A DNA stretch of 64,000 bases, from positions 129,006 through 193,005 of the forward strand of contig DAOORK010000001.1 of assembly GCA_035389185.1 (NCBI GenBank), given 5' to 3'. This DNA comes from Candidatus Woesebacteria bacterium (GTDB taxonomy: Bacteria; Patescibacteriota; Microgenomatia; UBA1400; MFAQ01). Under the pieces are notes generated by a model. It did not search any database. It saw only the letters and a program-made list of their open reading frames with translations, and had not been told where the DNA came from. Positions within the stretch are counted from its first letter, which is position 1, and each line of letters opens with the position of its first letter. This document shows positions 265 to 53,462 of this stretch, piece by piece. A program made the translations under genes and the position numbers.

Positions 265-338
265 GCGGGTGTCGTATACCGGTATTACCTCAGCTTTCCA
301 AGCTGATGAAAGGGGTCCGACTCCCCTCACCCGCTCCA
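265..338 (+). tRNA. tRNA-Gly (anticodon TCC), CCA encoded
   Basis: Hand fold: acceptor GCGGGTG/CACCCGC perfect 7 bp, anticodon stem TCAGC/GCTGA, loop TTTCCAA, T-arm AGGGG-TCCGACT-CCCCT, discriminator T then CCA. Confidence 0.7.
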
Positions 339-484
339 AGAAAAATCTCTCCCTTGTGGGGAGATTTTTTTGGACTGAAATAGGGATGTCGGACAAGCGG
401 AGCCAAGCTCGTGACGATCTTGGCGAGCCCGACTGAGAATTCATCAGCAGATGAATATCGAAGGACGACTCCCCTCACCCGCTC
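339..484 (+). repeat. tRNA-linked structured element (copy at tRNA-Gly) ending in a 19-nt duplicate of the tRNA-Gly 3' end
   Basis: 466-484 cgactcccctcacccgctc is identical to 318-336 of the tRNA; internal hairpins gccaag...cttggc and ttcatc-agca-gatgaa; homologous to the elements at 11134-11281 and 13710-13860. Confidence 0.6.
341..372 (+). terminator. rho-independent terminator-like hairpin downstream of tRNA-Gly
   Basis: A-run, stem atctctccc/ggggagat with loop ttgt, then T7 run. Confidence 0.55.
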
Positions 485-487
485 ACT

Positions 488-1558
488 TTAATACTCCTGT
501 TGTTTAAGTTGGTCTTTTGCTTTTTTGATGAATTTACCAAACTTTCTATCTTTTTCTCTTCTTTCTTGTTCGGTCATTTCATAAAATTCAGACTCCTTCT
601 TTAATTTCAGGAAATTTTTGTATTTATCTTTATCAATTACTCCTTCTTTTAGTGCTCCTAAAACTGCACAATTAGGTTCTTGTGTGTGAGAACAGTCTGA
701 ATATCTGCAACTATTTGCAAGAATGCTGATATCATCAAACACCTCTTTTAGGCCGATACTGGAATTGGAAATACCTACTTCTCTAGTGCCAGGGTTGTCG
801 ATTATGATTCCTCCATTTTTCATAAAGTACATTTCTCTTCCGGTAGTAGTGTGTTTGCCTTTATTTGTAATGCTAATGATTTCTCCAGTTTTAATAATGT
901 CTTTTCCCAACAGCCTATTTATTAACGATGATTTTCCAACACCAGATGAACCCAAGAAACAATATGTTTCGTTTTTCTTAATATATTCTTTCAGTTTGTC
1001 TAGACCATGATTTGTAATAACACTTGTGGTGATGACATCGGCGATTTTAAATCTTTTTTGAATATCGGAGATTATGGTTTTTAATTCTGCTTCCGATATT
1101 AAATCGGCTTTGTTTAAAACAATTACCGGGGTGATATTTCCTTCTCTTGCAAGAACAATAAATCTTTCAATCCTGTTAAGGTTGTAGTTCTTGCCCACGG
1201 CTTCAACGATAAAAGCAGTATCTATATTGGATGCAATTATTTGGATATCTTGTTTATTGCTATATTTCTTTTTAAGTACAGTTTTTCTGGGGAGGATTCC
1301 GCGAATAACAGCATTGCCGTTTTGAAGTTCTTCGATACTGACCCAGTCTCCTACTGCAGGAAAATCTTCTCTTTTTGTGGCTTCGAATATTTGCTTTCCT
1401 GTTATTCTTCCTAAATATTCTCCAGATTCATTTTTTACTTTATATGCTTCTTTATATTCTGCTATCACTCTAGCGACAGGAGTATCGGGAAACTTGGAGT
1501 TCATTCTCCCCAATTCAAAAAAATCAGTGTAGCCTAGTTCAATTAATTTATCGTTCAT
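488..1558 (-). CDS. rsgA: ribosome small subunit-dependent GTPase A (circularly permuted GTPase)
   Basis: Permuted G-motif order VLNKADL (G4) before GSSGVGKSSLIN (G1) and DNPG (G3); C-terminal Cys/His zinc cluster CRYSDCSHTQEPNC. Confidence 0.85.
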   Translation of the reverse strand: MNDKLIELGYTDFFELGRMNSKFPDTPVARVIAEYKEAYKVKNESGEYLGRITGKQIFEATKREDFPAVGDWVSIEELQNGNAVIRGILPRKTVLKKKYSNKQDIQIIASNIDTAFIVEAVGKNYNLNRIERFIVLAREGNITPVIVLNKADLISEAELKTIISDIQKRFKIADVITTSVITNHGLDKLKEYIKKNETYCFLGSSGVGKSSLINRLLGKDIIKTGEIISITNKGKHTTTGREMYFMKNGGIIIDNPGTREVGISNSSIGLKEVFDDISILANSCRYSDCSHTQEPNCAVLGALKEGVIDKDKYKNFLKLKKESEFYEMTEQERREKDRKFGKFIKKAKDQLKQQEY

Positions 1559-2983: not shown

Positions 2984-3952
2984 ATGACTGAACGTGGCGA
3001 AAAAGACGAAGTTAGATTGGACATTCGTGAAATGTCGGAGGAAATTCTTTCGAAAAGCCAGGATATTTTAAGCATCGAAAAGGATGATATCTCGACAGTA
3101 TTACTGCCCAAAATTGAGACATATTTATCCGAAAAAAAAGCCTCTAAATGGCTTCCCGAAGGAAACTTGCTTACTCTTGAACAGGAGTGTGGCATGAACT
3201 TGTTTTTGAACGTAATTAATTTTTGCTACAAAGATCCATCTTCCGGTCACGAATACGTTTATGTAACAGATGATGGAAAACTGATTAAAAGAGCAACTGG
3301 ATTGATCACAGCTTTATCTAGAAGCGGCATTGATTGGGATAATTTTGCGGAGGTTCAAAATCTGTCGCCTGAAAGATGGGAAGGTGTGACTCAGATATCT
3401 AGAGAGAACCCTATGTATCTTGGGGATGAGCGTTTGAAAAGGATTACTGAGTTCGCCAGCTACTTAGCTTCTTTGGGTTATGTCAATATGGATGACTTTT
3501 TGGGTGGTTGTGATTTTGATACGAAAAAAATGGTGAATATATTCGTCAACAGCCGTTATTTTAAGGATGATTTTCTTAAAAGAGCTCAGCTTGCTTGTAG
3601 AATGATAAACGATGTTTGGACGCGTCGGGGAGGGTTCCCTCTCAAAGATATTGAGACATTAACAGTGATGGCGGATTACCGCATTCCTCAAGTTTTTTAC
3701 AATCTAGGAGTGGTGACGATCAATGATTTTGAGTTGATGGATAAATTGATGACGGGGTCTCCTATCGACCCCAATAGCCGTGAAGAAAGAGCTTTACGGG
3801 CAACGGCGGTTGTTATTGGGAAGGAGGTGGCTGAGAAATTAGGAATAACTGAAGCTGATGTTGATGGTATTCTTTGGGGTCTATCTCAGGATATGGTGAG
3901 AAAGGGAGAAATGGAAATTCCACACATGATTGTGGCAACTGACGCATATTGA
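2984..3952 (+). CDS. queuosine salvage protein, QNG1/DUF2419 family (queuosine 5'-phosphate N-glycosylase/hydrolase-like)
   Basis: Recalled family blocks align: YVYVTDDGKLIKRATGLITAL, FLKRAQLACRMINDVW and especially LTVMADYRIPQVFYNLGVV (compare ITMFADYRLPQVLAHLGAL in human QNG1); length of about 320 aa fits. Confidence 0.65.
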   Translation: MTERGEKDEVRLDIREMSEEILSKSQDILSIEKDDISTVLLPKIETYLSEKKASKWLPEGNLLTLEQECGMNLFLNVINFCYKDPSSGHEYVYVTDDGKLIKRATGLITALSRSGIDWDNFAEVQNLSPERWEGVTQISRENPMYLGDERLKRITEFASYLASLGYVNMDDFLGGCDFDTKKMVNIFVNSRYFKDDFLKRAQLACRMINDVWTRRGGFPLKDIETLTVMADYRIPQVFYNLGVVTINDFELMDKLMTGSPIDPNSREERALRATAVVIGKEVAEKLGITEADVDGILWGLSQDMVRKGEMEIPHMIVATDAY

Positions 3953-4075: not shown

Positions 4076-4080
4076 CTTTT

Positions 4081-4269
4081 GATCCGGTAGCTCAGCTGGA
4101 TAACAGCTTACTCGTTCTCCTATCAATAATAACTATTATTGATATGTCGGCCTGCGTTTCCTGTTATATCTGGCGCCGATAATTACTCTGTCATTATCGT
4201 CTGGATATAGCGCTCGCTCTATCTGTCTACCTGCTAAATGGTTAGTACTTAGGTTAAAATATAGATGTT
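4081..4269 (+). repeat. pseudo-tRNA-Arg unit 1: exact 22-nt copy of the tRNA-Arg 5' end, then an insert of about 105 nt and a non-tRNA tail
   Basis: 4081-4102 gatccggtagctcagctggata is identical to 4270-4291; the insert carries hairpins tcaataata-ac-tattattga and gataat-N9-attatc and is homologous to the inserts in units 2 and 3. Confidence 0.6.
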
Positions 4270-4343
4270 GATCCGGTAGCTCAGCTGGATAGAGCGACTG
4301 CCTTCTAAGCAGTAGGTCGACGGTCCGAGTCCGTCCCGGGTCA
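4270..4343 (+). tRNA. tRNA-Arg (anticodon TCT)
   Basis: Acceptor GATCCGG/CCGGGTC (one G-T pair), D-arm GCTC-AGCTGGATA-GAGC, anticodon stem ACTGC/GCAGT loop CTTCTAA, T-arm GACGG-TCCGAGT-CCGTC, discriminator A. Confidence 0.8.
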
Positions 4344-4532
4344 CAATAGTAATTGTTCTGCTTTGCAGAATCAGCTGGATAACAGCTTGCTCCCCTTCTC
4401 TTCAATAATATTATTATTGAAGTATCCAGGCTCCGCTTCCTGTTATTTCCGCTCATAACTTCGTTATGATGCTTGGAAATAGCGCGACTGCCTTCTAAGC
4501 AGTAGGTCGACTACGAGCCCTCCCGGGTCACA
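4344..4532 (+). repeat. pseudo-tRNA-Arg unit 2: degenerate 5' half, about 95-nt insert at the D-loop, then an intact anticodon arm, a degenerate T-arm and the acceptor 3' end
   Basis: 4481-4532 agcgcgactgccttctaagcagtaggtcgactacgagccctcccgggtcaca matches the tRNA-Arg 3' portion except in the T-arm; the insert starts ACAGCTTGCTCC and has hairpins ttcaataatattattattgaa and cataac-ttcg-ttatga. Confidence 0.6.
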
Positions 4533-4719
4533 AAACCAGAGATAATAAATATTTACATAATTGTCTTGCAGTAAGAGCTTGCTCCCTACGACGCACATAA
4601 CATGCGTTATGTTGCTGTCTTCAGTCCGCTTCCTCTTATATTCGCTCGTAGTTCACTCTCTTAGTTCGTTTAACTACGATGCTTGAATATAGGTCGACTA
4701 CGAGCCCTCCCGGGTCACA
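4533..4719 (+). repeat. pseudo-tRNA-Arg unit 3: related insert followed by the T-arm/acceptor 3' fragment only
   Basis: 4691-4719 aggtcgactacgagccctcccgggtcaca is identical to the end of unit 2; the insert shares AGCTTGCTCC, CGCTTCCT, GATGCTTGAATAT blocks and a cataac-atgc-gttatg hairpin (covaries with unit 2). Confidence 0.55.
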
Positions 4720-4720
4720 A

Positions 4721-4746
4721 AGAAAAACCCTCCTTGCGGAGGGTTT
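4721..4746. terminator. bidirectional terminator (A-run, ccctcc-ttgc-ggaggg, T-run)
   Basis: Hairpin flanked by A-run and T-run, between the tRNA array and the convergent nadE 3' end. Confidence 0.55.
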
Positions 4747-4750
4747 GTAT

Positions 4751-5704
4751 TTATTTAGGAAGTTTTTTGATGGCTTCCAGATATAGTTTGCCAAATTCAA
4801 TGGTGTCGATTTCCGGAAGTCCGAGACGTCTACGGCTATTCAAGACACTACAGACATTGTCACCGTAGCGCCTTTTGAAAGCAGTTTTGAGTGCCTGACG
4901 GAGAATTTTTTCAACTTTCTCTTCGGTCTCCCCGATTTCAGAGGCTACTATCTTGATTTGATATCGGTAAAGCTTGTTTTCCAGTTGGTTGAAGCCACCT
5001 TCGGTTTTGAATCCAAGTTGTTTAAGACGGCAAATAATGTAGTCACCCTTTAAGTACGGAAGACCGAGTTGGTCACTGGCTTTATTTGAGTCAGTAACTT
5101 TGAGACCGTCTCCAGGTATTGCATCAAGATTGATCTGGGGAAGTTTGTAAAACTCGCCCATGTCGTAAACCTCGTTTTTGGTAAATATCTGGATAATTTT
5201 GACATCACCTTCATCGCCATGTTTGGTGAAAAAACCCATGTATTTTTCGCTTAGGTCATCGGTGTCCAGATAAATACCACTTTCAAGTTGGGCATAATGC
5301 ATAAGACCCACCATGCGCAGGCGGCATTTGATATTGCCTTTGGCTACCCTTGCCCGCGGATGACCCTCTGGAATAGTCTCAAGAAGCGGACATGATTGGT
5401 ACCACGCAGTAAAGTCATGGTATTCCAGTTTGAGATCAAGCGCATTGCAAAGAGCTTTAGCCCTCTCGTAGTCTTCGGGGTGACTCTCGATGTCGATGAA
5501 ATAACAATGCAGATTTACAGAATATCCTTGTGAAGATAGCGTGTCTGCAGTGCGTTTGGCTATGGCGGCAACGACTGATGAGTCAATACCACCAGAAATC
5601 CCCATGACAATGTCATGGAGGCCATACAATTTTAGGTATCTTGTTAGGGCCTTTTGGGCTTTACAATCGATCTTTGTTGCTTGTTCTTGTGTGAGAATGA
5701 GCAT
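4751..5704 (-). CDS. nadE: NH3-dependent NAD+ synthetase
   Basis: PP-loop SGGIDSS near the N-terminus and the NadE-typical GNIKCRLRM motif. Confidence 0.8.
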   Translation of the reverse strand: MLILTQEQATKIDCKAQKALTRYLKLYGLHDIVMGISGGIDSSVVAAIAKRTADTLSSQGYSVNLHCYFIDIESHPEDYERAKALCNALDLKLEYHDFTAWYQSCPLLETIPEGHPRARVAKGNIKCRLRMVGLMHYAQLESGIYLDTDDLSEKYMGFFTKHGDEGDVKIIQIFTKNEVYDMGEFYKLPQINLDAIPGDGLKVTDSNKASDQLGLPYLKGDYIICRLKQLGFKTEGGFNQLENKLYRYQIKIVASEIGETEEKVEKILRQALKTAFKRRYGDNVCSVLNSRRRLGLPEIDTIEFGKLYLEAIKKLPK

Positions 5705-11052: not shown

Positions 11053-11133
11053 AAAATGGATTGATTGAATAGGTCAAAGTACGTATATATATTACTACAA
11101 GATACCACTTTTGTCAAGTTATAGGGTATTTTG

Positions 11134-11281
11134 TTGCCGAGCTAGGACTCTGTCACCGGTTGTCGCCTAAGGCGACCCCGTCGACCCCGGCGTTTACCGC
11201 ACGTTACGTGCTGCATTCCGCCATTCTCGTCCTAGTATAGTATCAAAAAATATTCTCCCATAAAGGGAGAATATTGTTTTG
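11134..11281 (-). repeat. tRNA-linked structured element (copy at tRNA-Gln) ending in a 17-nt duplicate of the tRNA-Gln 3' end
   Basis: 11134-11150 ttgccgagctaggactc is identical to 11282-11298 (tRNA-Gln 3' end, minus strand); the GC-rich interior contains GCCGGGGTCGAC, the tcgcc-tta-ggcga hairpin and GGTGACA, homologous to the element at 13710-13860. Confidence 0.6.
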
Positions 11282-11353
11282 TTGCCGAGCTAGGACTCGA
11301 ACCTAGGATATCCTCCTCCAAAGGGAGGCGTCCTACCACTAGACGACTCGGCA
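11282..11353 (-). tRNA. tRNA-Gln (anticodon TTG)
   Basis: Read from the reverse complement: U1-A72 acceptor TGCCGAG/CTCGGCA, anticodon stem CCTCC/GGAGG loop CTTTGGA, T-arm CCTAG-GTTCGAGT-CCTAG, discriminator A. Confidence 0.75.
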
Positions 11354-13027: not shown

Positions 13028-13270
13028 TTATGTGGAGTGGCTAATCCTTTTTTGACGTAGGTAGAGTCGAACTGTCATTTCGCACTGACGAATTCCCTGT
13101 TGTTTCTTTCTCATTTTCAGACATAGATATAGTAGGTATTTTTTGTCTTTGATTTCATCTAGCTCATGAACTATACGCAACCCGATAGATTCTTGTTCTT
13201 TTTTAAGAATATCTAACTGGCGACTAGCATTTTCGTACTCGATTTTTGAAATAAGGTGTTTTGTTACCAC
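13028..13270 (-). CDS. hypothetical small protein
   Basis: 80-aa ORF with GTG start preceded by a GGAGAGGAAAGG RBS. Confidence 0.35.
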   Translation of the reverse strand: MVTKHLISKIEYENASRQLDILKKEQESIGLRIVHELDEIKDKKYLLYLCLKMRKKQQGIRQCEMTVRLYLRQKRISHST

Positions 13271-13628: not shown

Positions 13629-13709
13629 TGGGCAGGTGGCGAAATGGTAGACGCGCAGCGTTCAGGACGCTGTGAGGCAACTCATGAGGGTTCGAGTCCC
13701 TCCCCGCCC
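13629..13709 (+). tRNA. tRNA-Leu (anticodon CAG), class II
   Basis: Acceptor GGGCAGG/CCCGCCC (one A-C mismatch), D-loop AAATGGTAGA, anticodon stem CAGCG/CGCTG loop TTCAGGA, long variable arm TGAG-GCAA-CTCA, T-arm GAGGG-TTCGAGT-CCCTC. Confidence 0.7.
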
Positions 13710-13860
13710 ACATAAAAACATCAATATGTACTCTTGCAGTAAATATTGTGTTTTTGATTTTGTGGAGGACTCGAATGGCGCAGGCATGACTGATGCCGAG
13801 CCGGGGTCGACAGAATCGCCAGCAGGCGAGAACTGGTGACCGAGTCCCTCCCCGCCCACA
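13710..13860 (+). repeat. tRNA-linked structured element (copy at tRNA-Leu-CAG) ending in a 20-nt duplicate of the tRNA-Leu 3' end
   Basis: 13841-13860 cgagtccctccccgcccaca is identical to 13692-13711; interior AGGACTCGAATGGCG, hairpin ggcat-gact-gatgcc, GCCGGGGTCGAC, hairpin tcgcc-agca-ggcga, CTGGTGAC. Confidence 0.6.
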
Positions 13861-45805: not shown

Positions 45806-45880
45806 GGGTCAGTAGCTCAGTCGGTTAGAGCACCTGCCTTTTAAGCAGGGTGTCGCGGGTTCGAGTCCCGCCTGACCCAC
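45806..45880 (+). tRNA. tRNA-Lys (anticodon TTT)
   Basis: Acceptor GGGTCAG/CTGACCC, D-arm GCTC-AGTCGGTTA-GAGC, anticodon stem CCTGC/GCAGG loop CTTTTAA, T-arm GCGGG-TTCGAGT-CCCGC. Confidence 0.85.
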
Positions 45881-45883
45881 TTT

Positions 45884-45957
45884 GGTCCCGTCGTCTAGCG
45901 GTCTAGGACGTCAGGTTTTCATCCTGAATATCGCGGGTTCGATTCCCGCCGGGATCA
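45884..45957 (+). tRNA. tRNA-Glu (anticodon TTC)
   Basis: Acceptor GGTCCCG/CGGGATC (one G-T pair), anticodon stem TCAGG/CCTGA loop TTTTCAT, T-arm GCGGG-TTCGATT-CCCGC. Confidence 0.85.
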
Positions 45958-46140
45958 CTAAGTTCAGTTTGTTCCGAGGCGATCCGCAAGGGTCGCTTCG
46001 TTGTATTGATGTATCCGACTAAAATTTTCCTAAATTGATTGAAAATCGCGTTCGAGTCCCGTAAGGGTTGTTATTGGATTGTGGATAATTCTTCAAAAAA
46101 CGTCTATAAATAATAGTAGAGAGCAATCTTTACTCAACAA

Positions 46141-46311
46141 CTATTTGTGTTTTGTTTTATCCACTAGCACAAATTGTTGCCTTTTACCCTGGTTGTTTGG
46201 CGGTGTTTTATCACCTCGACTGAGAGTGTACTCAGTCGTACCACCCGAAGGTCGGTACTGTCCAGAAACTGGAGCAAGTTTGCCTGTATAGGCAATTACT
46301 TTTTTCTGCAT
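46141..46311 (-). CDS. hypothetical small protein (56 aa)
   Basis: ATG preceded by an AGGAGG RBS, internal to the 81-aa track ORF; Gly/Thr-rich. Confidence 0.4.
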   Translation of the reverse strand: MQKKVIAYTGKLAPVSGQYRPSGGTTEYTLSRGDKTPPNNQGKRQQFVLVDKTKHK

Positions 46312-46454
46312 TTCCTTTTTCCTCCTTTCTCGCCGGGCTACGGCGTGCTGGTTGCACCGCTCCTTCGAGAAATTTAGCTGTACCAATAAAGACGCTCTCT
46401 ACTGCGAATAATCTATCACCAAAAATCTAACTTAGCAACTTTTTACTTAGAGTG

Positions 46455-47780
46455 CTAATTATTGATTAAAATATACCTGTTTTTGAGAACGAACCTTGTG
46501 TTAATAAGTGAGAGAATTTCCAATCTTTCTTCTGAAGTTCCTCCCCTGAGAATATGGATCAGGTAGTTCTTCGCCATTGCTTTGAATTCTAGTTTTCCCG
46601 GAATCATTCCATTTTCCCCATCGAACTTACCCAACATATATTCTTGGTGGAGTACATCGGTTTTTAACCTGTGATATCTTTCGATGTCCTCTTGGATTTT
46701 CCGAGAGATGCCAGCCTGATTGTAAGATATTTTGTCGATATGACCAATTATTTGTTTAACGAGATCATCTTCCTCAACATATGGTTCGTTACATTCGTAA
46801 TCTAAATATCTCCGACAGTGGTAGTAGATATGCTTTTTAAACCCTCCTCCCCTTAATTTTCTCAGTTTCTCTTCTGCGGTTACCGAACTTCCGCAAGATC
46901 CACACTTTATTAATGTTTTGAAAGCAAAGATATTTTTGTTCCATGTCTTTGGTACTGTTTCCAGTTGTTTTTGGACTTTCTCGAATAACTCTTTGGTAAT
47001 AAGTGGTTTGTGTTTGCCCTTGTACCAGATGCCACTTCCAGATGGAAATTCAAACTCACCATAATAGAATGGATTTTTGAGAATTGCGTGAACTTTACTC
47101 GTGGGACACAACACACCTTGTCTGGTTTCAAAACCAATTCTATCTAGCCATCTTTTTACCGACCTACCACTGTGACCTTGGACACCAACTCTTTCAAACA
47201 TTTGTTTTACAAATGGGGCCCTAATTGGATCGAGGATAACCAGCTCATCAGTACGGCCATCTCCCTTTTGGTTGAGATATCCCATCGGAGCCATACTTGG
47301 TTTCCAACCTAGACTACATTTGTTTCTTAATCCCCTTTCGACATTTACTCCCTTGTTATCGTTTTCCAATTTGGCTTGGGAGCAGAGGATCATCAGAAGA
47401 AATTTTTCGTTGGGACTATTGGTGAAGGATTGGCTGTAAGTTTGGATGCGGAGTAGTTTCTTCTGGTCCATGAGGTCCACAAGTGTTCCCAGATCACCCG
47501 CATTACGGCTTAGACGATCAGGTGCCCATGTGAGTATTCCGTTGAACTTTCCGGAGCGAATTCCTTTTATTAATTCCACAAATACAGGTCTTGCTCCAGA
47601 TTCTTTGGCTGAATGACTTTCTATTTTTATTTCTTTTACTTTTATGTTTTCTCTCTTAGCCAATACTTTCATTTCGTCAATTTGAGAATCAATGGACATA
47701 ATTTGTCTTTCGTCACTTTCAGAAGACTTGCGGGCGTAGAGACAGTAACTTATTTCCTGTGTTTTTGTGGATGTATCCAT
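46455..47780 (-). CDS. large serine recombinase (integrase)
   Basis: N-terminal resolvase catalytic domain (YARKSS, SIDSQ Ser), recombinase domain, Cys zinc ribbon (CGSCGS...C), coiled-coil C-terminus; 441 aa. Confidence 0.85.
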   Translation of the reverse strand: MDTSTKTQEISYCLYARKSSESDERQIMSIDSQIDEMKVLAKRENIKVKEIKIESHSAKESGARPVFVELIKGIRSGKFNGILTWAPDRLSRNAGDLGTLVDLMDQKKLLRIQTYSQSFTNSPNEKFLLMILCSQAKLENDNKGVNVERGLRNKCSLGWKPSMAPMGYLNQKGDGRTDELVILDPIRAPFVKQMFERVGVQGHSGRSVKRWLDRIGFETRQGVLCPTSKVHAILKNPFYYGEFEFPSGSGIWYKGKHKPLITKELFEKVQKQLETVPKTWNKNIFAFKTLIKCGSCGSSVTAEEKLRKLRGGGFKKHIYYHCRRYLDYECNEPYVEEDDLVKQIIGHIDKISYNQAGISRKIQEDIERYHRLKTDVLHQEYMLGKFDGENGMIPGKLEFKAMAKNYLIHILRGGTSEERLEILSLINTRFVLKNRYILINN

Positions 47781-47813
47781 TACTTATCAATGTACCGCAA
47801 GTTTTCTGTAAGT

Positions 47814-49244
47814 CTAGTCCAGGTATCTAACTCTTGGCTCTCCTTTGCTTGCCTCAGCTATGAAATAGTAAAAACCGAGAGTGAAAGCATCAACTAGATC
47901 ATCGTGTGGCTCTACCCCAAAATGAATAATCTGTCCGATTAGCTCATCGGCTCCATGGACTGGAAAAAGCACTTTACCGTTTTGAATCCAACTACTGGTA
48001 AGTGAGAGTCGACTTCTTTTGTCATTTCCACCGATTGTTATTCCTTTTACGTTTACGCTCTCGGTTTCCAACATTTGGATTAAACTTTTTTGATAAGCAA
48101 CATCTTCTACTAAAACTAAGGGTGAATATTGGAGAAGGGATTGTCGGAGATCATTAATTATTTTGATTGTTTCCGGCATTCCCATTCTTTTATTTACCAT
48201 TGTGGGCATTACCTTCACTTGGATATCTTTGTGGTAACCATACATCAGGAATATTACGATTGCGGTTTTGTCTGCCCTTTGGTTTTCGGAAATAGCAGGA
48301 TCGACAGATATGACGGCACACCTCAGATTTTTTGTATCGATTGGAAGTGTGGAGTCATATCGAGCAATCCACTCCGGTAAAACGACTTGATCACCATCGG
48401 GGATTATTTTAAGCATGAACTCCCGAAGAAAATCGGAATCACTGGCAGTTTTCTTTCTCAATCTTTCAATTGAACGTTTGTCCGTAAACTTCCCCGGCCA
48501 AAGGATTTTGCTTCCCCTCATCAAGGGATACTGTTTATAGATTCCGTCAATTCTTTTCTTGGATATGGCTTTCTTCATCCTCATCATTAGAGAGTCTTCG
48601 TGGACGAGATTACCGATGAAAACAATTTTAGTGTTTTGATCTCCTGAAGGAATAAGCTCCGAGTTTACAAATTGCCAAAGTTTATCTCTTCCTTCTTTCG
48701 TCTTAGCCGACTGCATATCCTCGATATCATCGCAGATGATGAGATCTGGACGGTATTGGCGATGGCGAATACCTCTCATACTTTGTGAAACGGAAACTAC
48801 GGTAATTCTGGCATTGTATCGATCCAAAACTAAACTCTCACTATTCCACTCTCCCTTTTTGGAAGCGAAACTTCCAAAGTCTGTATAAAGTAGTTTGTTT
48901 AACTCCAATTCCGCTTTTATATTTGATAAAGTTTGCTGAGCCTGTTGTTGGGTTTGGCAGACGATCAAAACATATTTCTTTTGTGGCGCACCTACGATTG
49001 ACCAGATCGGGTATGAGAGTGTCATTATGGTCGATTTGGCTGACCCACGGAAGGCAACAATAGCTAGTGTTTTAGTATCGACATTCTCCGTTAAACGAAA
49101 TATTTCCTGTTGGAACTGAGCGGTTTCGTATTTAACAAAAGAAGAGAAATATGTATGGAAAAACCAATAATGTGAACCAAAGGTTACTGATTGCCTTACC
49201 GCTGGATTACCGATGATATTTTCAAAAAGTTTCTGCTTTTCCAT
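47814..49244 (-). CDS. phage terminase large subunit
   Basis: ATPase Walker A-like AFRGSAKST, Walker B LIICDDIED, C-terminal RNase H-like nuclease Asp residues (VISVDPA, LVEDVAYQ, HDDLVDAF). Confidence 0.75.
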   Translation of the reverse strand: MEKQKLFENIIGNPAVRQSVTFGSHYWFFHTYFSSFVKYETAQFQQEIFRLTENVDTKTLAIVAFRGSAKSTIMTLSYPIWSIVGAPQKKYVLIVCQTQQQAQQTLSNIKAELELNKLLYTDFGSFASKKGEWNSESLVLDRYNARITVVSVSQSMRGIRHRQYRPDLIICDDIEDMQSAKTKEGRDKLWQFVNSELIPSGDQNTKIVFIGNLVHEDSLMMRMKKAISKKRIDGIYKQYPLMRGSKILWPGKFTDKRSIERLRKKTASDSDFLREFMLKIIPDGDQVVLPEWIARYDSTLPIDTKNLRCAVISVDPAISENQRADKTAIVIFLMYGYHKDIQVKVMPTMVNKRMGMPETIKIINDLRQSLLQYSPLVLVEDVAYQKSLIQMLETESVNVKGITIGGNDKRSRLSLTSSWIQNGKVLFPVHGADELIGQIIHFGVEPHDDLVDAFTLGFYYFIAEASKGEPRVRYLD

Positions 49245-49656
49245 TTTCTTTGATTGGTTTTTCTTTTATGACTCCTGAAAGCAGAAGTGCTTCTCTTACA
49301 ATTGCCTCTTCATCAGGTGTGAGATCATCACGCAGGTGATTCTGGTCGGAAGAGATTTCCAACTTGGGAATGTATGACTGGTGATGATTTTTGAGCCAGA
49401 AGATGATGGCAGTCATATTCTTGTCTCTTATCGATGAAAGCAACTGCGACTCGGCCATGTCATTAATCATCTCAATGCCTTCTTTGAGAGCTTTATCGCT
49501 TTCCTCTTTGAACTTTTTATCCTCCGACCGCCAACGATAGTAGGTGGCACGGCTAACCCCTGATTTTTCGCAAACGACTTGGACAATTGGTGTCTTTTGC
49601 AACAACTCGATGAGTTTGCTTTTATTTTCTTCTTGACGTTTTTCGATGGTGTTCAT
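49222..49656 (-). CDS. putative terminase small subunit / HTH DNA-binding protein
   Basis: HTH VSRATYYRWR; lies immediately upstream of and overlapping the terminase large subunit. Confidence 0.5.
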   Translation of the reverse strand: MNTIEKRQEENKSKLIELLQKTPIVQVVCEKSGVSRATYYRWRSEDKKFKEESDKALKEGIEMINDMAESQLLSSIRDKNMTAIIFWLKNHHQSYIPKLEISSDQNHLRDDLTPDEEAIVREALLLSGVIKEKPIKENGKAETF

Positions 49657-50978
49657 GTGATTTGTTTAGCTTTTAATCCAGTGAGTCTCTCCCATCTTTT
49701 TTTGATAACCTCAGCGTAGACTGGAGACTTCTCCATGAGATAGCAACGACGTTTCATTTTGGTAGCCGCAATCAAGGTTGACCCGCTGCCACCAAATGGT
49801 TCGACAATCAGGTTACCTCGCTTGGTAAGAACTTTGATGTATGGAATTAATATCTCGGTTGGTTTGGTGCCGAAGATCACACCTTGGCCGGAATGTTTTT
49901 CATCTGAGGCATTAAACTCAATGAAATCTGTTGGTTGTGTTTTCTTTCCTTTCTCATACCCTTCCCATTGAGGTTTGCCAGATATGGCGTAGAGTGCGGT
50001 TTCATATTCTTGCTGGAGTCCGTCTTGTTCTTCCTCGTTGTTGTACTGAATATCCACTTCTTTTGACGCTCCAACCATGGCAATGTCATGTTTGCTGAAG
50101 AACTTATATTTAGCAGAGAAACCTTGATGTCGATTGGGTAAATGCCAAATTATCATATTTTTTACTTTCCAATGTTTTTCCATTTCCCCCCAAATGGTTC
50201 GTAGGTTCTTCCAGTTTTCGTAAACAATGATGGAGAAATGTTCCTTTTGAATATTGGCGATGCTGTTCATCCATTTTTCAGTAAAGTCTAACGGAAGACT
50301 TTCGGTTTCCAAATATCTTCGATCTCTTTTAGCTCCGAATCCTGTTACCGCTTTTCCGTGGCGTTTAGCTTTTAGATAGTCGAGAATGTATGGAGGATCG
50401 GTAAAACACATATCTGCTTTCTCCCCAGCCATCAACTTGAGCCATTCTTCATCGTTGGTGGAATCTCCACACATCAATCTGCTTCCGTCGAGGTCATAAA
50501 TATCACCTTTCTTTATATTTATTTTGGTGATATCCATCTTCAATAGTTCCTTCTGGAGATCAAACTGTTCCGGTGTGTCTTCAATCTCAAAGATTTGATC
50601 TAACTCTTCACTGGAGAAACCAACACTATCCAAAAAAGCAGAATCAAAATCGGCTAACAAACCCCAATCCCATTCACCTGTGTTTTTGTTTAGTCTGAGA
50701 TTTAACTCTTTTTCTTTCTCGATGTCGGGAATATTTACATAGACCACAGGAATTGTTTCGAAGCCCATTTCTTTGGCGACTTCTAACCTGAAATGACCAC
50801 CGATGACAATGTTCTTCCTTTCTGGAGCTTCGTTGACGATGATTGGATCGACCAATCCAAATTTGGTAATACTTTCTTTCAACTGGTCAGCTGATTGTTT
50901 ATCGTGCTTCCTGGGGTTGTATGCCGCAGGATTAAGTTCCTTTATGAAAACTTGGGTTATTTGTATTTGTTTACTCAT
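49653..50978 (-). CDS. ParB-like nuclease domain fused to a DNA methyltransferase (beta-class N4/N6)
   Basis: N-terminal ParB/Srx block (GGHFRLEVAKEMG), motif IV DPPY placed before motif I FGGSGST, so beta-class permutation. Confidence 0.85.
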   Translation of the reverse strand: MSKQIQITQVFIKELNPAAYNPRKHDKQSADQLKESITKFGLVDPIIVNEAPERKNIVIGGHFRLEVAKEMGFETIPVVYVNIPDIEKEKELNLRLNKNTGEWDWGLLADFDSAFLDSVGFSSEELDQIFEIEDTPEQFDLQKELLKMDITKINIKKGDIYDLDGSRLMCGDSTNDEEWLKLMAGEKADMCFTDPPYILDYLKAKRHGKAVTGFGAKRDRRYLETESLPLDFTEKWMNSIANIQKEHFSIIVYENWKNLRTIWGEMEKHWKVKNMIIWHLPNRHQGFSAKYKFFSKHDIAMVGASKEVDIQYNNEEEQDGLQQEYETALYAISGKPQWEGYEKGKKTQPTDFIEFNASDEKHSGQGVIFGTKPTEILIPYIKVLTKRGNLIVEPFGGSGSTLIAATKMKRRCYLMEKSPVYAEVIKKRWERLTGLKAKQIT

Positions 50979-51000
50979 GTTTTTTGAGTAATTGATAATA

Positions 51001-51062
51001 AAAAATGCCTACCTCACAAAAACCTGCTTCAACGCGAAGCGATAAGTTTCTGTGAGGTAGGC
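51001..51062 (-). terminator. large-loop hairpin, probable terminator of the minus-strand operon
   Basis: Perfect 12-bp inverted repeat gcctacctcaca / tgtgaggtaggc around a 32-nt loop, with an A5 run (T-run on the minus strand). Confidence 0.4.
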
Positions 51063-51150
51063 ACGACCGAGGCGAGGCCTCTTCGATAGCTTTGGAGCCA
51101 TCTCCTATCAGGTATTCCTGAAATGAGTGATTCCTACACCACTAATTTAA

Positions 51151-51486
51151 TTATACTGATTTTTTCTGTATTTTTTTCAGGCGCTCTTTTACGTCTTCTC
51201 CAAGAAGAAAGGGTATGCCATTTGGCATAATTATCCGGATGGTCATTCCTTGCTTATTGGCTTTTTCTATTGCTTGAGTAATTTCTGGACCAAAAGGAAT
51301 TGTGAACGTCATTTTCCCTGTCGATTCATCGAGCTTAACATTATCTCTAGTCATAAATGCACGTCCCTGTTGTCCAGTAGATATGGATTTGGAGATAGCT
51401 CTGCCAAATGAAACAGGTTTCCTTACCTCTTGGGTGTGTAGAGAAATATCGGTAAATTGGATATCAAAATATTTTTCATCGGTCAT
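51151..51486 (-). CDS. hypothetical protein
   Basis: 111-aa ORF, last gene of the nuclease-receiver operon. Confidence 0.45.
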   Translation of the reverse strand: MTDEKYFDIQFTDISLHTQEVRKPVSFGRAISKSISTGQQGRAFMTRDNVKLDESTGKMTFTIPFGPEITQAIEKANKQGMTIRIIMPNGIPFLLGEDVKERLKKIQKKSV

Positions 51487-51498
51487 AACTTAATTATA

Positions 51499-51876
51499 TT
51501 AATTTTGACCGTACTTTTTCCCGATTTGGTCTTTGAGTTCTGCCGCGAACTTTTCCAAATCTTGATACTCCTTGTTTATCACAACTTTTACGCCTATTTT
51601 TAGAAGTTCCTCGTTGTATGGTGGGACAGAAGAAATTCCAATTATTTTATCTACTCCAAATTTTTCAAAATCTAATGCATGGAAAGATCCGCCCATGGCA
51701 CAATCACGGTCAAGAAGAATTATGTCGAATTTTAGTTCACTAGGGTTAAGTATCTTTTCGACTTGCTCATAAGTGGAAAAAACTACTGGAGCAAAATCTA
51801 TCTTTGTTTCGAATAATACTCTAAAAATTATCGAGAGCGTCTCCAAATCATCTTCGAGGATAAGCATTGACTTCAT
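51499..51876 (-). CDS. response-regulator receiver-like (CheY-like) domain protein, stand-alone
   Basis: MLILEDD ... ILLDRD pattern (phospho-acceptor Asp position) with alternating beta/alpha periodicity; 125 aa. Confidence 0.4.
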   Translation of the reverse strand: MKSMLILEDDLETLSIIFRVLFETKIDFAPVVFSTYEQVEKILNPSELKFDIILLDRDCAMGGSFHALDFEKFGVDKIIGISSVPPYNEELLKIGVKVVINKEYQDLEKFAAELKDQIGKKYGQN

Positions 51877-53369
51877 TGTCCTTGTTTATCTAAATAGTCT
51901 TTGATAACCATGGTAGCTACACAGTCGTCTTCGTTATACAGAAGAATTCTGTCCATATCGGCCTTGTCTTTGGTTTCAAGATAGTGGTTAAACCATTCAA
52001 TAGACATGGCGCCGGAGGGTGTCTTGTCTCGCCAGCTAAAGCCTAGATACTGAGCAATTTCTTTTAGAGAGTAGCTCATCAAGGGCCAATCGGTATGTTT
52101 GGAAACTACAGAATATAGATCTATTGCTTTTTCTTCACTAAAGAACCAAGCAAGTTCTTCCTCAGTAACCACATCCGGATACTTTTCTCTCATGCGGCGA
52201 TAGGTTGTCTTCTCGTGGTGGGAATAATAGTAAGTAGTAAAGTCGTCTTTGGGTAGTGATCGAATATATTGCCAAAAATTACTCCAGGCTTCTCTTTCTG
52301 ATTCGTCGGTTTTGTCTAATGCAGTAAAGTCTATAAACCTCTCCCCTTTTGGAGAGCGCTCGTATACACCATGAAGATAGACAAAGGCTTGGGTGGGATC
52401 GTCTTCAATATCAAAATATAATTCGTAGCTTGTTTTGGGAAAGTTCATTTTTTCGTAAATGACGGGACTTTTTGTAACTTCCATGATTTTTGATCTTTGA
52501 ACAAACTTTGTGAGTTTTGCCTCTCCCAAACCAAATAAATACTTTTTGTCTTTTTTCTTTTTGGCCAATAGTGTGTCGATGTCCAGGTCAATCAAATCTA
52601 TGTAGCTTTCAATGTCCAAATCTCTTTCTAGGATATCTCTGTTGGCCCTACCGAGACAGAAGATCATACTTGGGTCATGACTCTCTTTTATCCATTTTTT
52701 GCAGCTTGCGTACCATGGGCAAAGTTTGCATTTGCCGGAATATGCTGGTTTGTTTTTTATTTCGTTATTTAAGAGCTTCCCTGCCATTACTTTTGTTTCT
52801 TGGTAAAAGTCCCAGTAAGTTTGAGGTGTTTTTGTGCCAATAGGTTTATCCAAGTCGTATGTAGTTCTCTCGGAGTTAATATCGATAATGGCACCAGAAT
52901 GTTTTTTAGCAAAACCGAGATTGATAAGCACTTCGCAGTAGAGAGCGAGTTGAACCGCATAATGTATTTTGTATTTTCCCTCATTATCATTTTCCTCATC
53001 TACTCCCTCAACTCCCATACCGCTTTTGATGTCGACTGGTAGGTAGGTACCGTCTGGCTGTATTTCTAAGAGGTCCGGAATGCCAAAGAGCTCGCTGTGG
53101 CGAATAGCTCCTTGGTAAATGAGTGGCATTCCTGCATTCATGGCTTCTAGAGTGGCTTTTTCTCTTTCTTTCTCCCCTACTTCTTTGAGATCCAGAATCT
53201 TTCCCAGCTTGCCCACTATATTTTCTTCGTGACTGACTCCTTTTTCCCAAAGCATTTCTACAAAGGGATTTGTATCTGGATTCTTTTCGGCCTTTGGGCC
53301 ATACACATCACGCCAAATACGATGTTCGCACTGGAGGTAGTTATATAGTTTAGATGGTGTGATTTTCAT
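51873..53369 (-). CDS. RecB-family nuclease, TM0106-like (Cas4-like PD-(D/E)xK with Fe-S cysteines, plus a C-terminal RNase H-like domain)
   Basis: N-terminal Cys (YLQCEH), IPDLLEI...VDIK, QLALYCEV (QxxxY), CKLCPWYASC; C-terminal FDIEDD ... YYSHHEKT ... YNEDDC; ATGA overlap with the receiver gene. Confidence 0.55.
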   Translation of the reverse strand: MKITPSKLYNYLQCEHRIWRDVYGPKAEKNPDTNPFVEMLWEKGVSHEENIVGKLGKILDLKEVGEKEREKATLEAMNAGMPLIYQGAIRHSELFGIPDLLEIQPDGTYLPVDIKSGMGVEGVDEENDNEGKYKIHYAVQLALYCEVLINLGFAKKHSGAIIDINSERTTYDLDKPIGTKTPQTYWDFYQETKVMAGKLLNNEIKNKPAYSGKCKLCPWYASCKKWIKESHDPSMIFCLGRANRDILERDLDIESYIDLIDLDIDTLLAKKKKDKKYLFGLGEAKLTKFVQRSKIMEVTKSPVIYEKMNFPKTSYELYFDIEDDPTQAFVYLHGVYERSPKGERFIDFTALDKTDESEREAWSNFWQYIRSLPKDDFTTYYYSHHEKTTYRRMREKYPDVVTEEELAWFFSEEKAIDLYSVVSKHTDWPLMSYSLKEIAQYLGFSWRDKTPSGAMSIEWFNHYLETKDKADMDRILLYNEDDCVATMVIKDYLDKQGQ

Positions 53370-53462
53370 TTAGACAAGGCGACTCCTGTGTTTTATATGC
53401 ACTCTTCGGGTGGTGGCTAAATTATATGCCAGTTATTCATCAATAGAGTTACAATAGAAACT

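What the first reader, a model, noticed from the sequence alone, without database searches (positions are those of the whole stretch)
339..484. tRNA-Gly(TCC) copy of the tRNA-linked element with a 19-nt 3'-end duplication
cgactcccctcacccgctc occurs at 318-336 inside the tRNA and again at 466-484. The interval holds a terminator-like hairpin and two further hairpins, gccaag-N11-cttggc and ttcatc-agca-gatgaa. The second has the same loop AGCA, but different stem bases, as the tcgcc-agca-ggcga hairpin of the tRNA-Leu copy. The element ends 3 nt before the rsgA stop on the opposite strand.
Basis: seen in the sequence. Interest (0 to 1): 0.55.

Follow-up and report, generated by a model that had tools for sequence, protein, structure and literature searches.

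The report
Structured mini-element duplicating tRNA gene ends
Directly behind the tRNA-Gly gene sits a ~130-base non-coding, hairpin-rich insert flanked by a repeat of the tRNA's last 19 bases; it is one member of an apparently undescribed family that occupies the 3' ends of many different tRNA genes in Microgenomates (CPR) bacteria and behaves like a tRNA-targeting mobile element.

Summary
CGACTCCCCTCACCCGCTC occurs at 318-336 (in tRNA-Gly-TCC) and at 466-484, and nowhere else in the window. The Leu-CAG and Gln copies have the same layout and the same 148-nt spacing, and covariance models confirm that they are homologous. The unit has five parts: a terminator hairpin, a segment antisense to the adjacent tRNA's T-arm, two covarying hairpins in a three-way junction, and a copy of the tRNA from the T-loop to its 3' end. 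In related Woesebacteria and Collierbacteria MAGs the same element follows Gly, His, Pro, Arg, Leu and Lys tRNAs, each copy matched to its own tRNA. It is present or absent at orthologous sites exactly at the repeat boundaries, it occurs in tandem, and nearly identical bodies sit at different tRNAs. Its stems are almost pure Watson-Crick. It has no ORF and no Rfam, phage or literature match, and no recombinase gene lies nearby. The most likely reading is a non-autonomous insertion element specific for tRNA genes. The mechanism is inferred, and a functional RNA remains a serious rival.

The parts
265..338 (+). tRNA-Gly(TCC) gene with encoded CCA; the target or host gene of the element
   Evidence: ARAGORN; Rfam tRNA 53.3 bits
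318..336 (+). Proximal copy of the 19-nt repeat (T-loop nt 56 to C74 of the tRNA)
343..371 (+). Terminator-like hairpin (A-run, stem tctccc/gggaga, T-run). It travels with the unit in related copies.
   Evidence: The same terminator type occurs in L016 and L014. The terminator of unit A in L041 is shared with L009.
383..394 (+). antiT segment GGGATGTCGGAC. It is the reverse complement of the tRNA T-arm (GTCCGAC-A-TCCC, with one bulged T) and forms the 5' strand of helix P1.
397..428 (+). P2 domain. It consists of an outer 2-3 bp (397-398 with 427-428), the stem gccaag/cttggc (402-407 with 419-424), and an apical mini-stem tcg/cga around a tga triloop (409-417).
439..456 (+). P3 hairpin attcatc-agca-gatgaat
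466..484 (+). Distal copy of the 19-nt repeat. Its first 9 nt (466-474) form the 3' strand of P1. The remainder is the acceptor 3' strand plus the discriminator.
339..484 (+). The whole inserted unit as read here (terminator + antiT + P2 + P3 + repeat). The covariance-model match covers 383-484.
   Evidence: R1 87.9 bits, E 8e-17; R2 83.6 bits, E 1e-18
13712..13860 (+). Sister copy behind tRNA-Leu(CAG) 13630-13711. The repeat 13693-13712 equals 13841-13860, and the spacing is 148 nt.
11129..11280 (-). Sister copy behind tRNA-Gln(TTG) 11281-11353(-). The repeat 11277-11298 equals 11129-11150, and the spacing is 148 nt.
488..1558 (-). rsgA, convergent with the tRNA. This neighbour is not conserved in relatives and is not part of the element.

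Best explanation
The 339-484 segment is one copy of a family of small (about 75-150 nt), non-coding, hairpin-rich insertion elements. These elements lodge in the last ~20 bp of tRNA genes in Microgenomates (Woesebacteria/Collierbacteria, CPR). Insertion leaves the tRNA gene intact because the stretch from the T-loop (nt 54-57) to the 3' end is present on both sides of the insert, either as a long target duplication or as an att-type identity block. The element also supplies a new terminator for the tRNA. Its core is a three-way junction. Helix P1 pairs an internal segment antisense to the T-arm (antiT) with the repeated T-loop/T-stem sequence, so P1 is a duplex replica of the target. P2 and P3 are two hairpins joined by conserved purine-rich linkers (CGGAG, CGAG, GAAG). 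Inferred steps: the element is moved in trans by a recombinase or transposase encoded elsewhere. That enzyme recognises the folded, probably single-stranded DNA form and the T-arm of a tRNA gene, and it cuts or exchanges strands about 20 bp apart, in the T-loop and at the gene end. The inverted repeats (P2, P3 and antiT versus the T-arm) are kept perfectly complementary by DNA-level processes such as templated correction of quasi-palindromes. This would also re-fit antiT to each new tRNA. Shown: the anatomy, homology, covariation, presence/absence at orthologous sites, tandem insertion, and exchange of bodies between tRNA types. Not shown: the enzyme, the intermediate, and current activity.
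For: Three features mark the window copies. (1) The repeat is exact, and the 148-nt spacing is identical at three different tRNAs in the window. (2) Homology is supported statistically: R1 and R2 find 29 or more copies in 230 kb of related MAG DNA. All lie 0-50 nt downstream of a tRNA and on the tRNA strand. The tRNAs are Gly-TCC, His, Pro, Arg-TCG, Arg-TCT, Leu-TAA, Leu-CAG, Gln and Lys. (3) Presence/absence: 4 of the 11 tRNA-Gly loci returned by the genome-contig scan are filled. L015 (empty) and L014 (filled) are syntenic, and the indel is bounded by the repeat. L042 (one unit) versus L041 (a second unit of another subfamily, 162 nt, inserted next to the tRNA) has about 97% identical flanks. 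Tandem units also occur in L046 and L039. (4) Bodies move between tRNA types. The Arg-TCG copy of L014 is 88% identical to the Gly copy of L042, whereas many Gly-Gly pairs are below 60%. Its antiT differs at exactly the two positions where the two T-loops differ, and its 3' repeat is Arg-specific. (5) antiT matches its own tRNA: the mean complementary run is 9.2 nt for cognate pairs against 4.8 nt for non-cognate pairs. (6) The structure is real. 89.2% of cells are paired against 67.8% in shuffles (0 of 500 shuffles reach the observed value). 171 cells show a change on both sides against 52 in shuffles. Slid controls give 24-41%. (7) The stems are almost pure Watson-Crick on both strands. G-T pairs are 6 of 635 against 55 of 1340 in tRNA stems of the same loci (p = 7e-5). 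Inner-helix A-C pairs are equally rare. This fits a DNA-level constraint. (8) There is no room for a promoter between the terminator and antiT, no sigma-70-like site was found, and the neighbouring genes vary. (9) The distal repeats decay and acquire insertions while the proximal tRNA stays intact.
Against: No recombinase, transposase, RT or HUH gene lies beside any copy examined. The only recombinase in the window is a large serine recombinase 45 kb away, a type that makes 2-bp rather than 20-bp repeats. No autonomous long version was found. A double-stranded circle of 97-148 bp would be very strained. Conserved single-stranded junction purines and tandem G-A pairs in P3 look more like RNA than like transposon ends. 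The element persists at tRNA-Gly across relatives whose RsgA is only 71% identical, which could reflect function rather than repeated insertion. antiT follows the proximal tRNA in L003 but the distal copy in His_L018, so no single simple rule fits every copy. All sequences are MAGs or metagenome contigs, and activity has not been observed.
Confidence: 0.5

Rival explanations
1. The element is a functional structured RNA, not primarily a mobile element. It would be a 3'-trailer or small RNA co-transcribed with the tRNA by terminator read-through. Its antiT segment pairs with the T-arm of the nascent or unfolded tRNA, and the downstream T-loop/T-stem copy acts as an internal competitor (P1). This would make a tRNA-specific switch, chaperone or decoy affecting tRNA maturation, quality control or a tRNA-targeting enzyme.
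For: The three-way junction covaries strongly and has conserved unpaired purines (CGGAG, CGAG, GAAG) and tandem G-A pairs. Orientation and distance relative to the tRNA are fixed. antiT is complementary to the cognate T-arm and follows the proximal tRNA's changed T-loop in L003. Copies at Arg-TCG (L014) and Leu-CAG (window) have no terminator between tRNA and element, so co-transcription is certain there. The element is retained in relatives whose RsgA is only 71% identical.
Against: A strong bidirectional terminator precedes most copies. G-U pairs are four-fold rarer than in tRNAs of the same genomes, and there is no strand asymmetry. The element is dispensable in 7 of the 11 tRNA-Gly loci returned by the genome-contig scan. 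Tandem and truncated copies exist. Bodies are swapped between tRNA types. The acceptor part of the distal copy decays freely. His_L018 antiT does not match its tRNA. No Rfam family matches.
Confidence: 0.25
2. The element is guide-directed. antiT, as RNA or single-stranded DNA, base-pairs with the T-arm of a tRNA gene and programmes where a trans-acting enzyme inserts the element. The distal repeat is target DNA used as a primer or staggered overhang, as in target-primed reverse transcription or a Cas1-like staggered integration. Point changes in antiT would retarget the element to other tRNAs.
For: The complementarity spans the left edge of the repeat: 1-4 nt of the T-stem 5' strand, the whole T-loop, and the T-stem 3' strand. 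The Gly-to-Arg-TCG switch involves only the 2 antiT positions that differ between the T-loops, while the 21-nt repeat is entirely target-derived. Repeat length is a near-constant 19-22 nt, about two helical turns. A 5'-shortened copy lacking the terminator exists (L014 Arg-TCG). A second repeat family at tRNA-Arg(TCT) shows the same logic at the D-loop and 5' end.
Against: No RT, Cas1, IS110-type or TnpB-type gene was seen near any copy or in the annotated parts of the window. Perfect antiT matches can equally be produced after insertion by palindrome correction or selection. The Gln and Gly_win antiT segments are imperfect. No direct evidence exists for an RNA intermediate.
Confidence: 0.15
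3. The copies are scars of ordinary integrase-borne islands or prophages: attL and attR brought close together after internal deletion, with no family identity of their own.
For: A regenerated tRNA plus a displaced 3' fragment is the classical signature of tyrosine-integrase islands (Islander abstract, PMC4383910). Two P3-less His-type copies lie 1.1 and 4.6 kb from tRNA-His with cargo genes in between.
Against: The insert is homologous at nine tRNA types and in many genomes. Its length is identical, at 148 nt, at three window tRNAs. It has a covarying three-way junction. No integrase remnant is present. Independent deletions would not converge on one structured 130-nt sequence.
Confidence: 0.06

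Closest known systems
tRNA-gene-integrating genomic islands and prophages using tyrosine integrases with a T-loop crossover (Islander; Williams 2002, cited from my own knowledge)
   Same: Both target the 3' part of a tRNA gene. The gene is regenerated and a displaced 3' fragment marks the far end. The identity block starts in the T-loop and runs to the gene end. Tandem accretion at one tRNA occurs, and sites are polymorphic for presence or absence.
   Different: These elements are 75-150 nt with no integrase or any other ORF. They have a conserved covarying three-way junction and an internal segment antisense to the T-arm. The same body is found at nine different tRNA types, with the repeat always that of the local tRNA. 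A fixed attP could not produce that pattern without creating chimeric tRNAs.
Casposons (Cas1 casposase), e.g. Aciduliprofundum boonei (PMC5137440)
   Same: Staggered integration gives a long direct target duplication (15 bp) that overlaps the 3' end of a tRNA gene. Recognition requires the adjacent T-psi-C-loop segment. The repeat-duplicating logic resembles CRISPR spacer insertion.
   Different: Casposons are large, carry terminal inverted repeats, and encode Cas1 and PolB. Their duplication lies mostly downstream of the tRNA. The duplication here is 19-22 nt and lies inside the tRNA. No TIRs and no Cas1 gene were seen, and the organisms are CPR bacteria rather than archaea.
Folded single-strand recombination substrates: integron attC sites and CTX-phi attP (from my own knowledge)
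   Same: All are non-coding elements whose sequence varies while their hairpin structure is conserved. A folded single strand recreates a duplex recombination site. Units accumulate in tandem next to a fixed site.
   Different: No intI/attI or dif/Xer context is present, and there is no GTTRRRY core. P1 mimics a tRNA T-arm. The repeats are 19-22 nt. A single-strand mechanism is only inferred here.
MITEs, REP/BIME elements and IS200/IS605-derived PATEs
   Same: All are short, non-autonomous, multi-copy intergenic elements with strong hairpins. IS608 uses short internal guide sequences that base-pair with its cleavage and target sites (my own knowledge).
   Different: There are no terminal inverted repeats. 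The target duplication is far longer than the 2-10 bp typical of MITEs, and IS200/605 elements make none. Linkage to tRNA 3' ends is strict and in one orientation. The target-complementary segment is 9-13 nt.

Membership tests
Tyrosine-integrase tRNA-integrating island | Direct repeat of the tRNA segment from the crossover (T-loop or anticodon loop) to the 3' end flanks the insert, and the tRNA is regenerated | tested here: met
   318-336 equals 466-484, starting at T-loop nt 56. The tRNA is intact. The same holds at Leu and Gln.
Tyrosine-integrase tRNA-integrating island | Integrase gene inside the element next to an att site | tested here: not met
   The insert is 129 nt, and the only ORFs overlapping it are spurious ones that also overlap the tRNA. 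Pfam finds no integrase in neighbouring ORFs of the window or of L009/L011.
Tyrosine-integrase tRNA-integrating island | A fixed attP sequence, so that one element family uses one tRNA identity block | tested here: not met
   Bodies that are 88% identical sit at Gly and Arg-TCG with entirely different repeats.
MITE | Terminal inverted repeats at both ends | tested here: not met
   The only long-range inverted repeat is antiT (internal, 383-394) with the flanking repeat (466-474). The element's ends are not inverted copies of each other.
MITE | Short target-site duplication (2-10 bp) and a related autonomous IS | tested here: not met
   The repeats are 19-22 nt. No related longer element was found in the loci, in IMG/VR or in GenBank phages.
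Known structured RNA families (Rfam 15, including hammerhead, twister, group I/II introns, tRNA-like and retron msr) | Covariance-model match at or near the gathering score | tested here: not met
   The only matches are terminator-hairpin look-alikes at 8-20 bits, against gathering scores of 37-127. The junction sequences do not fit the hammerhead core: the P2-P3 junction is CGAG..., not GAAA.
Integron cassette / attC | Adjacent intI/attI platform and a GTTRRRY core at the cassette boundaries | tested here: not met
   The boundaries are tRNA 3' ends. No tyrosine recombinase is present in the annotated 1-16 kb and 22-58 kb of the window. The boundary sequence varies with the tRNA.
Casposon | Cas1 casposase gene, TIRs and a 14-15 bp TSD | tested here: not met
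   There is no ORF and no TIR, and the repeat is 19-22 nt. Only the target logic resembles that of PMC5137440.
The new tRNA-linked element family itself (as defined by models R1 and R2) | Position downstream of a tRNA on the same strand, antiT complementary to the T-arm, P2 with a YG-TRA-CR apex, P3, and a 3' copy of the T-loop to the 3' end | tested here: met
   The window copy scores 87.9 bits (R1) and 83.6 bits (R2), and all features are present.

The most novel reading that the evidence does not exclude
This is a new class of nucleic-acid-guided mobile element. It would be a ~100-nt structured module that carries a programmable guide (antiT) complementary to the T-loop region of tRNA genes, and it would be inserted by a still unidentified host or helper enzyme with a two-turn (~20 bp) stagger that automatically regenerates the tRNA. 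One- or two-base changes in the guide would retarget it to other tRNAs. A sister family at tRNA-Arg(TCT) would use the mirror-image strategy at the D-loop and 5' end.
Probability: 0.2. Interest if true: 0.9.

Novelty: new variant of a known kind. Interest (0 to 1): 0.72.

Why it matters
CPR/Patescibacteria have tiny, streamlined genomes and a poorly known mobilome. Here up to a quarter or more of the tRNA genes sampled carry a structured, non-coding passenger. This passenger regenerates the gene it enters, brings its own terminator, and is individually matched to its tRNA by a complementary segment. If it is mobile, it defines a new way of using tRNA genes as safe harbours without encoding any protein, and it points to an unidentified recombinase or transposase with a ~20-bp ruler and possibly base-pair-guided targeting. 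That would interest both mobile-DNA biologists and genome engineers. If it is instead a functional RNA, it would be the first tRNA-specific cis/trans antisense module attached to tRNA genes. In practice, these repeats also mimic island endpoints and will mislead att-site and genomic-island predictors, as well as tRNA 3'-end annotation, in CPR genomes.

Tried and rejected
- **Rfam.** Rfam 15 was searched over 1-16 kb at E<=1, and over the element alone in the window and in L016 at E<=10. It returned only tRNAs and terminator look-alikes.
- **IMG/VR, first pattern.** GCCGGGGTCGACNGNNTCGCC gave 20 hits, all in 54-74% GC phage DNA with no flanking similarity, so they are chance matches.
- **IMG/VR, P2-based patterns.** One pattern gave 0 hits. 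The other gave 4 hits, none confirmed by R2.
- **GenBank phages.** blastn in distant mode found no match.
- **Partner enzyme.** Pfam on 18 ORFs flanking copies, plus precomputed Pfam for about 50 kb of the window, showed no tyrosine integrase, RT, HUH, Cas1 or IS transposase. The exceptions were a weak Mutator-like fragment in L011 and a large serine recombinase at 46455-47780 that belongs to a separate island. One look-up failed, probably because of a wrong start codon.
- **Hammerhead or other small ribozyme.** I rejected this because the junction sequences do not fit and Rfam finds nothing.
- **Group I intron.** The element is too small (76-130 nt), and the distal 'exon' copies decay.
- **PBS-like tRNA priming on the opposite strand.** The repeat excludes CCA and extends past nt 58, so this was rejected.
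- **Degenerate second tRNA.** The tRNA matches R1/R2 only through the shared 3' end (19-25 bits).
- **Strand assignment.** The attempt to assign the folding strand from G-U versus A-C counts was uninformative, because both are nearly absent.
- **Alignment.** MAFFT alone misaligned P3 and the Leu/Gln copies, so alignment to the covariance model was needed.
- **Literature.** Six full-text searches found no description of such an element.

Full report
**Observation.** The window begins with the end of a SpoU-type methylase gene, followed by tRNA-Gly(TCC) at 265-338 with an encoded CCA. The 19-mer CGACTCCCCTCACCCGCTC is at 318-336 and again at 466-484. No third site matches even with 3 mismatches, and 0.01 are expected by chance. 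In tRNA numbering the repeat runs from C56 in the T-loop through the T-stem 3' strand, the acceptor 3' strand and the discriminator to C74. Between the copies lie three hairpins:
- a strong bidirectional terminator-like hairpin (stem 348-364 with a T-run; fuller stem 343-371);
- gccaag-N11-cttggc (402-424);
- ttcatc-agca-gatgaa (440-455).

The repeat ends at 484, and the convergent rsgA ORF (488-1558, minus strand) has its stop at 488-490.

**Anatomy.** Two features were not in the finding. First, the spacing between the repeat copies is exactly 148 nt at tRNA-Gly, at tRNA-Leu(CAG) (13693-13712 = 13841-13860) and at tRNA-Gln(TTG) on the minus strand (11277-11298 = 11129-11150). Second, positions 383-394 (GGGATGTCGGAC) are the reverse complement of the tRNA's own T-arm apart from one bulged T. 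Folding pairs this segment (antiT) with the start of the distal repeat. The resulting helix P1 closes a three-way junction whose other arms are the two hairpins P2 and P3. The last ~10 nt, the acceptor strand copy, remain single-stranded.

**Sister copies in the window.** A covariance model built only from Gly-linked copies of other genomes (R1) finds the window Leu-CAG copy at 28.5 bits, E about 7e-4 to 9e-4. A broader model (R2) was run with filters off over all 64 kb. It finds exactly three sites above noise:
- Gly at 383-484, E = 1e-18;
- Leu-CAG at 13765-13859, E = 1e-8 (this copy was in the seed);
- Gln at 11131-11236 (minus strand), E = 1.9e-4 (this copy was not in the seed).

**Organism and relatives.** The identical RsgA protein is annotated as Candidatus Woesebacteria, and the contig is JAKQJP010000175.1 of GCA_029561095.1. 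The element follows tRNA-Gly in relatives whose RsgA is 89% and 71% identical, although the flanking gene differs. It is therefore linked to the tRNA and not to rsgA. A scan of species-representative genomes with a 39-nt piece of this tRNA-Gly returned 11 Collierbacteria, Woesebacteria and Patescibacteria MAGs. Four are filled and seven are empty.

Two filled/empty comparisons locate the indel:
- L015 (empty) and L014 (filled) share the downstream sequence, so the indel is one unit bounded by the repeat.
- L042 carries one unit. L041 has the same tRNA and the same unit, plus a second unit of a different subfamily (162 nt) inserted next to the tRNA. The flanks are about 97% identical.

The terminator of that new unit is the one found with its closest relative in L009, so the terminator travels with the element. 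Tandem or truncated second units also occur in L039 and L046.

**A family across tRNAs.** In 230 kb of these loci, R1 and R2 detect about 29 copies. All lie 0-50 nt downstream of a tRNA, on its strand. They follow Gly-TCC, His, Pro, Arg-TCG, Arg-TCT, Leu-TAA, Leu-CAG and Gln genes. One further copy carries a tRNA-Lys-type 3' repeat. Overall 25 of 89 tRNA genes carry a copy, though Gly is over-sampled by the search design. Each copy ends with 10-22 nt identical to the 3' end of its own tRNA, starting at T-loop nt 54-57. Each also has an antiT complementary to its own T-arm: the longest complementary run averages 9.2 nt for cognate pairs against 4.8 nt for non-cognate pairs.

The distal repeat is often degraded or interrupted. 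Several interruptions are a GC-rich palindrome placed between the T-stem and acceptor parts. The proximal tRNA is always intact.

Bodies do not cluster by tRNA type. The Arg-TCG copy of L014 is 88% identical to the Gly copy of L042, whereas many Gly-Gly pairs are below 60%. The antiT segments of these two copies differ at just the two positions that distinguish the T-loops TCCGACT and TTCGAAT. Their 3' repeats are entirely different and tRNA-specific. The body has therefore moved between tRNA genes, and the repeat is derived from the target.

**Structure.** On 28 distinct copies aligned to the model:
- 89.2% of pair cells are standard pairs, against 67.8% in shuffles (0 of 500 shuffles reach the observed value);
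- 171 cells carry changes on both sides, against 52 in shuffles;
- 24 of 28 pairs show such changes;
- sliding the partners by 1-3 columns drops pairing to 24-41%.

This alignment was fitted to the model, which favours the structure. However, the same helices came out of RNAalifold on a plain MAFFT alignment and out of single-sequence folds. The helices are almost purely Watson-Crick: 6 G-T pairs among 635, against 55 G-U among 1340 in tRNA stems of the same loci (Fisher p = 7e-5). A-C mismatches, which would be G-U pairs on the other strand, are equally rare in the inner helices. Close relatives differ by double, fully compensated changes without wobble intermediates. This pattern gives no strand signal. 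It is what DNA-level hairpins or templated correction of quasi-palindromes would produce (inference from established knowledge of quasi-palindrome mutagenesis). It does not exclude an RNA.

**What it is not.** There is no Rfam match for the element, and the junctions do not fit the hammerhead core. It has no ORF. No integrase, RT, HUH, Cas1 or IS transposase gene lies next to any copy or in the roughly 50 kb of the window for which precomputed Pfam annotation was retrieved. The one recombinase, a large serine recombinase at 46455-47780, belongs to a separate island beside tRNA-Lys/Glu. No copies were found in IMG/VR or GenBank phages with the patterns tried. Six literature searches found nothing comparable.

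**Mechanism.** The evidence best supports a non-autonomous insertion element specific for the T-loop-to-3'-end segment of tRNA genes. The following are shown:
- insertion/deletion polymorphism at the repeat boundaries;
- successive insertion of different subfamilies at one tRNA;
- transfer of bodies between tRNA types with target-derived repeats;
- a conserved folded core.

The rest is inferred. The near-constant 19-22 nt repeat suggests strand cleavages or exchanges about two helical turns apart, in the T-loop and at the gene end. This regenerates the gene automatically. The logic resembles the casposase target at tRNA-Pro (15-bp duplication with recognition of the T-psi-C-loop segment; PMC5137440) and the regenerated-gene rule of integrase islands (PMC4383910). 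P1 is a duplex replica of the target T-arm. I propose that it is the recognition or synapsis site in a folded single strand, as with integron attC or CTX-phi (my own knowledge). The alternative is that antiT acts as a guide that selects the tRNA.

A fixed-attP integrase model is disfavoured by the Gly/Arg-TCG pair. A pure scar model is excluded by the homology and covariation. A functional-RNA reading, in which antiT pairs with the tRNA's T-arm and the distal copy competes with it, remains a serious rival. It is supported by the RNA-like junction, the fixed orientation and the terminator-less copies. It is weakened by the terminator in most copies, the dispensability of the element, the tandem and truncated copies, the scarcity of G-U pairs, and His_L018, whose antiT no longer matches its tRNA.

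**Novelty and verdict.** The Gly copy is a genuine, well-preserved member of a family I could not find described anywhere. I classify it as a new variant of a known kind (non-autonomous, tRNA-targeting insertion elements). There is a substantial chance that the targeting principle is new.

**Caveats.**
- All data are MAG or metagenome contigs.
- The family sample is biased towards tRNA-Gly by the search design.
- E-values from the shortened calibration are rough.
- No expression or activity data exist.

Noticed in passing
window 4077-4725: A second, unrelated repeat family surrounds tRNA-Arg(TCT) 4270-4344. It includes a 24-nt copy of the tRNA 5' end (4079-4102 = 4268-4291) and three units of about 190 nt. 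It also includes a 33-nt anticodon-arm copy (4479-4511) and a 32-nt repeat (4503-4534 = 4690-4721). Each unit begins with ACAGCT, complementary to the D-stem AGCTG just upstream. This is the same 'antisense to target plus duplicated tRNA segment' logic, mirrored at the D-loop and 5' end.
   Followed up: partly
window 46455-47780 (-) and 45806-58325: A large serine recombinase (Resolvase + Recombinase + Zn_ribbon_recom) lies beside tRNA-Lys(TTT)/tRNA-Glu(TTC). It is followed by a ParB-N6 methylase, a PDDEXK/RNase H protein, a 1620-aa Type ISP restriction enzyme and a PIF1 helicase, so this is probably an integrated island. A T-arm-like fragment, GCGTTCGAGTCCCG, sits at about 46040-46062.
   Followed up: partly
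window 13040-13110 (-): A fragment resembling a tRNA 3' end (…GACAGTTCGACTCTACCTACGTCA) followed by a terminator hairpin lies just upstream of tRNA-Phe. ARAGORN does not call it as a tRNA, and it overlaps an 80-aa ORF.
   Followed up: no
L009 5745-5775, L013 ~3480-3500, L041 2060-2085, L045 ~4940-4960: A GC-rich palindromic mini-insert (CCTACCGGCGGGCAGGCC or CTGCCTGCCGGCAGGCAGG) sits inside the distal repeat. It always lies between the T-stem 3' strand and the acceptor strand, at both Gly and Arg-TCT copies.
   Followed up: no
L009 3337-3422 (-) and L011 5548-5633 (+): His-type copies without P3 lie 1.1 kb and 4.6 kb from tRNA-His. Cargo genes sit in between: a Na/Ca exchanger in one locus; a methyltransferase, NUDIX, GT2 and polyprenyl synthase in the other. 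About 100 nt upstream of both copies is conserved. In L009 the distal repeat is followed by the same terminator as the tRNA itself.
   Followed up: partly
L046 1-230: A tRNA-Lys-linked tandem of two identical units. The second unit breaks off in the P2 loop. This body resembles the window Leu-CAG and Gln copies (GGGGTCGAC…GGTGAC).
   Followed up: no
L048 120-380 (-): Two degenerate mini-copies (antiT + P2 only) lie in tandem between tRNA-Leu(TAA) and tRNA-Arg(TCT). One has the GCACGTAACGTGC hairpin seen in the window Gln copy.
   Followed up: no
window 13733-13742, 4362-4368, 4567-4576: The motif CTTGCAG(T/A)A is shared by the left part of the Leu-CAG copy and by the Arg-type repeats. It may be a promoter -35-like box or a common boundary sequence.
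   Followed up: no
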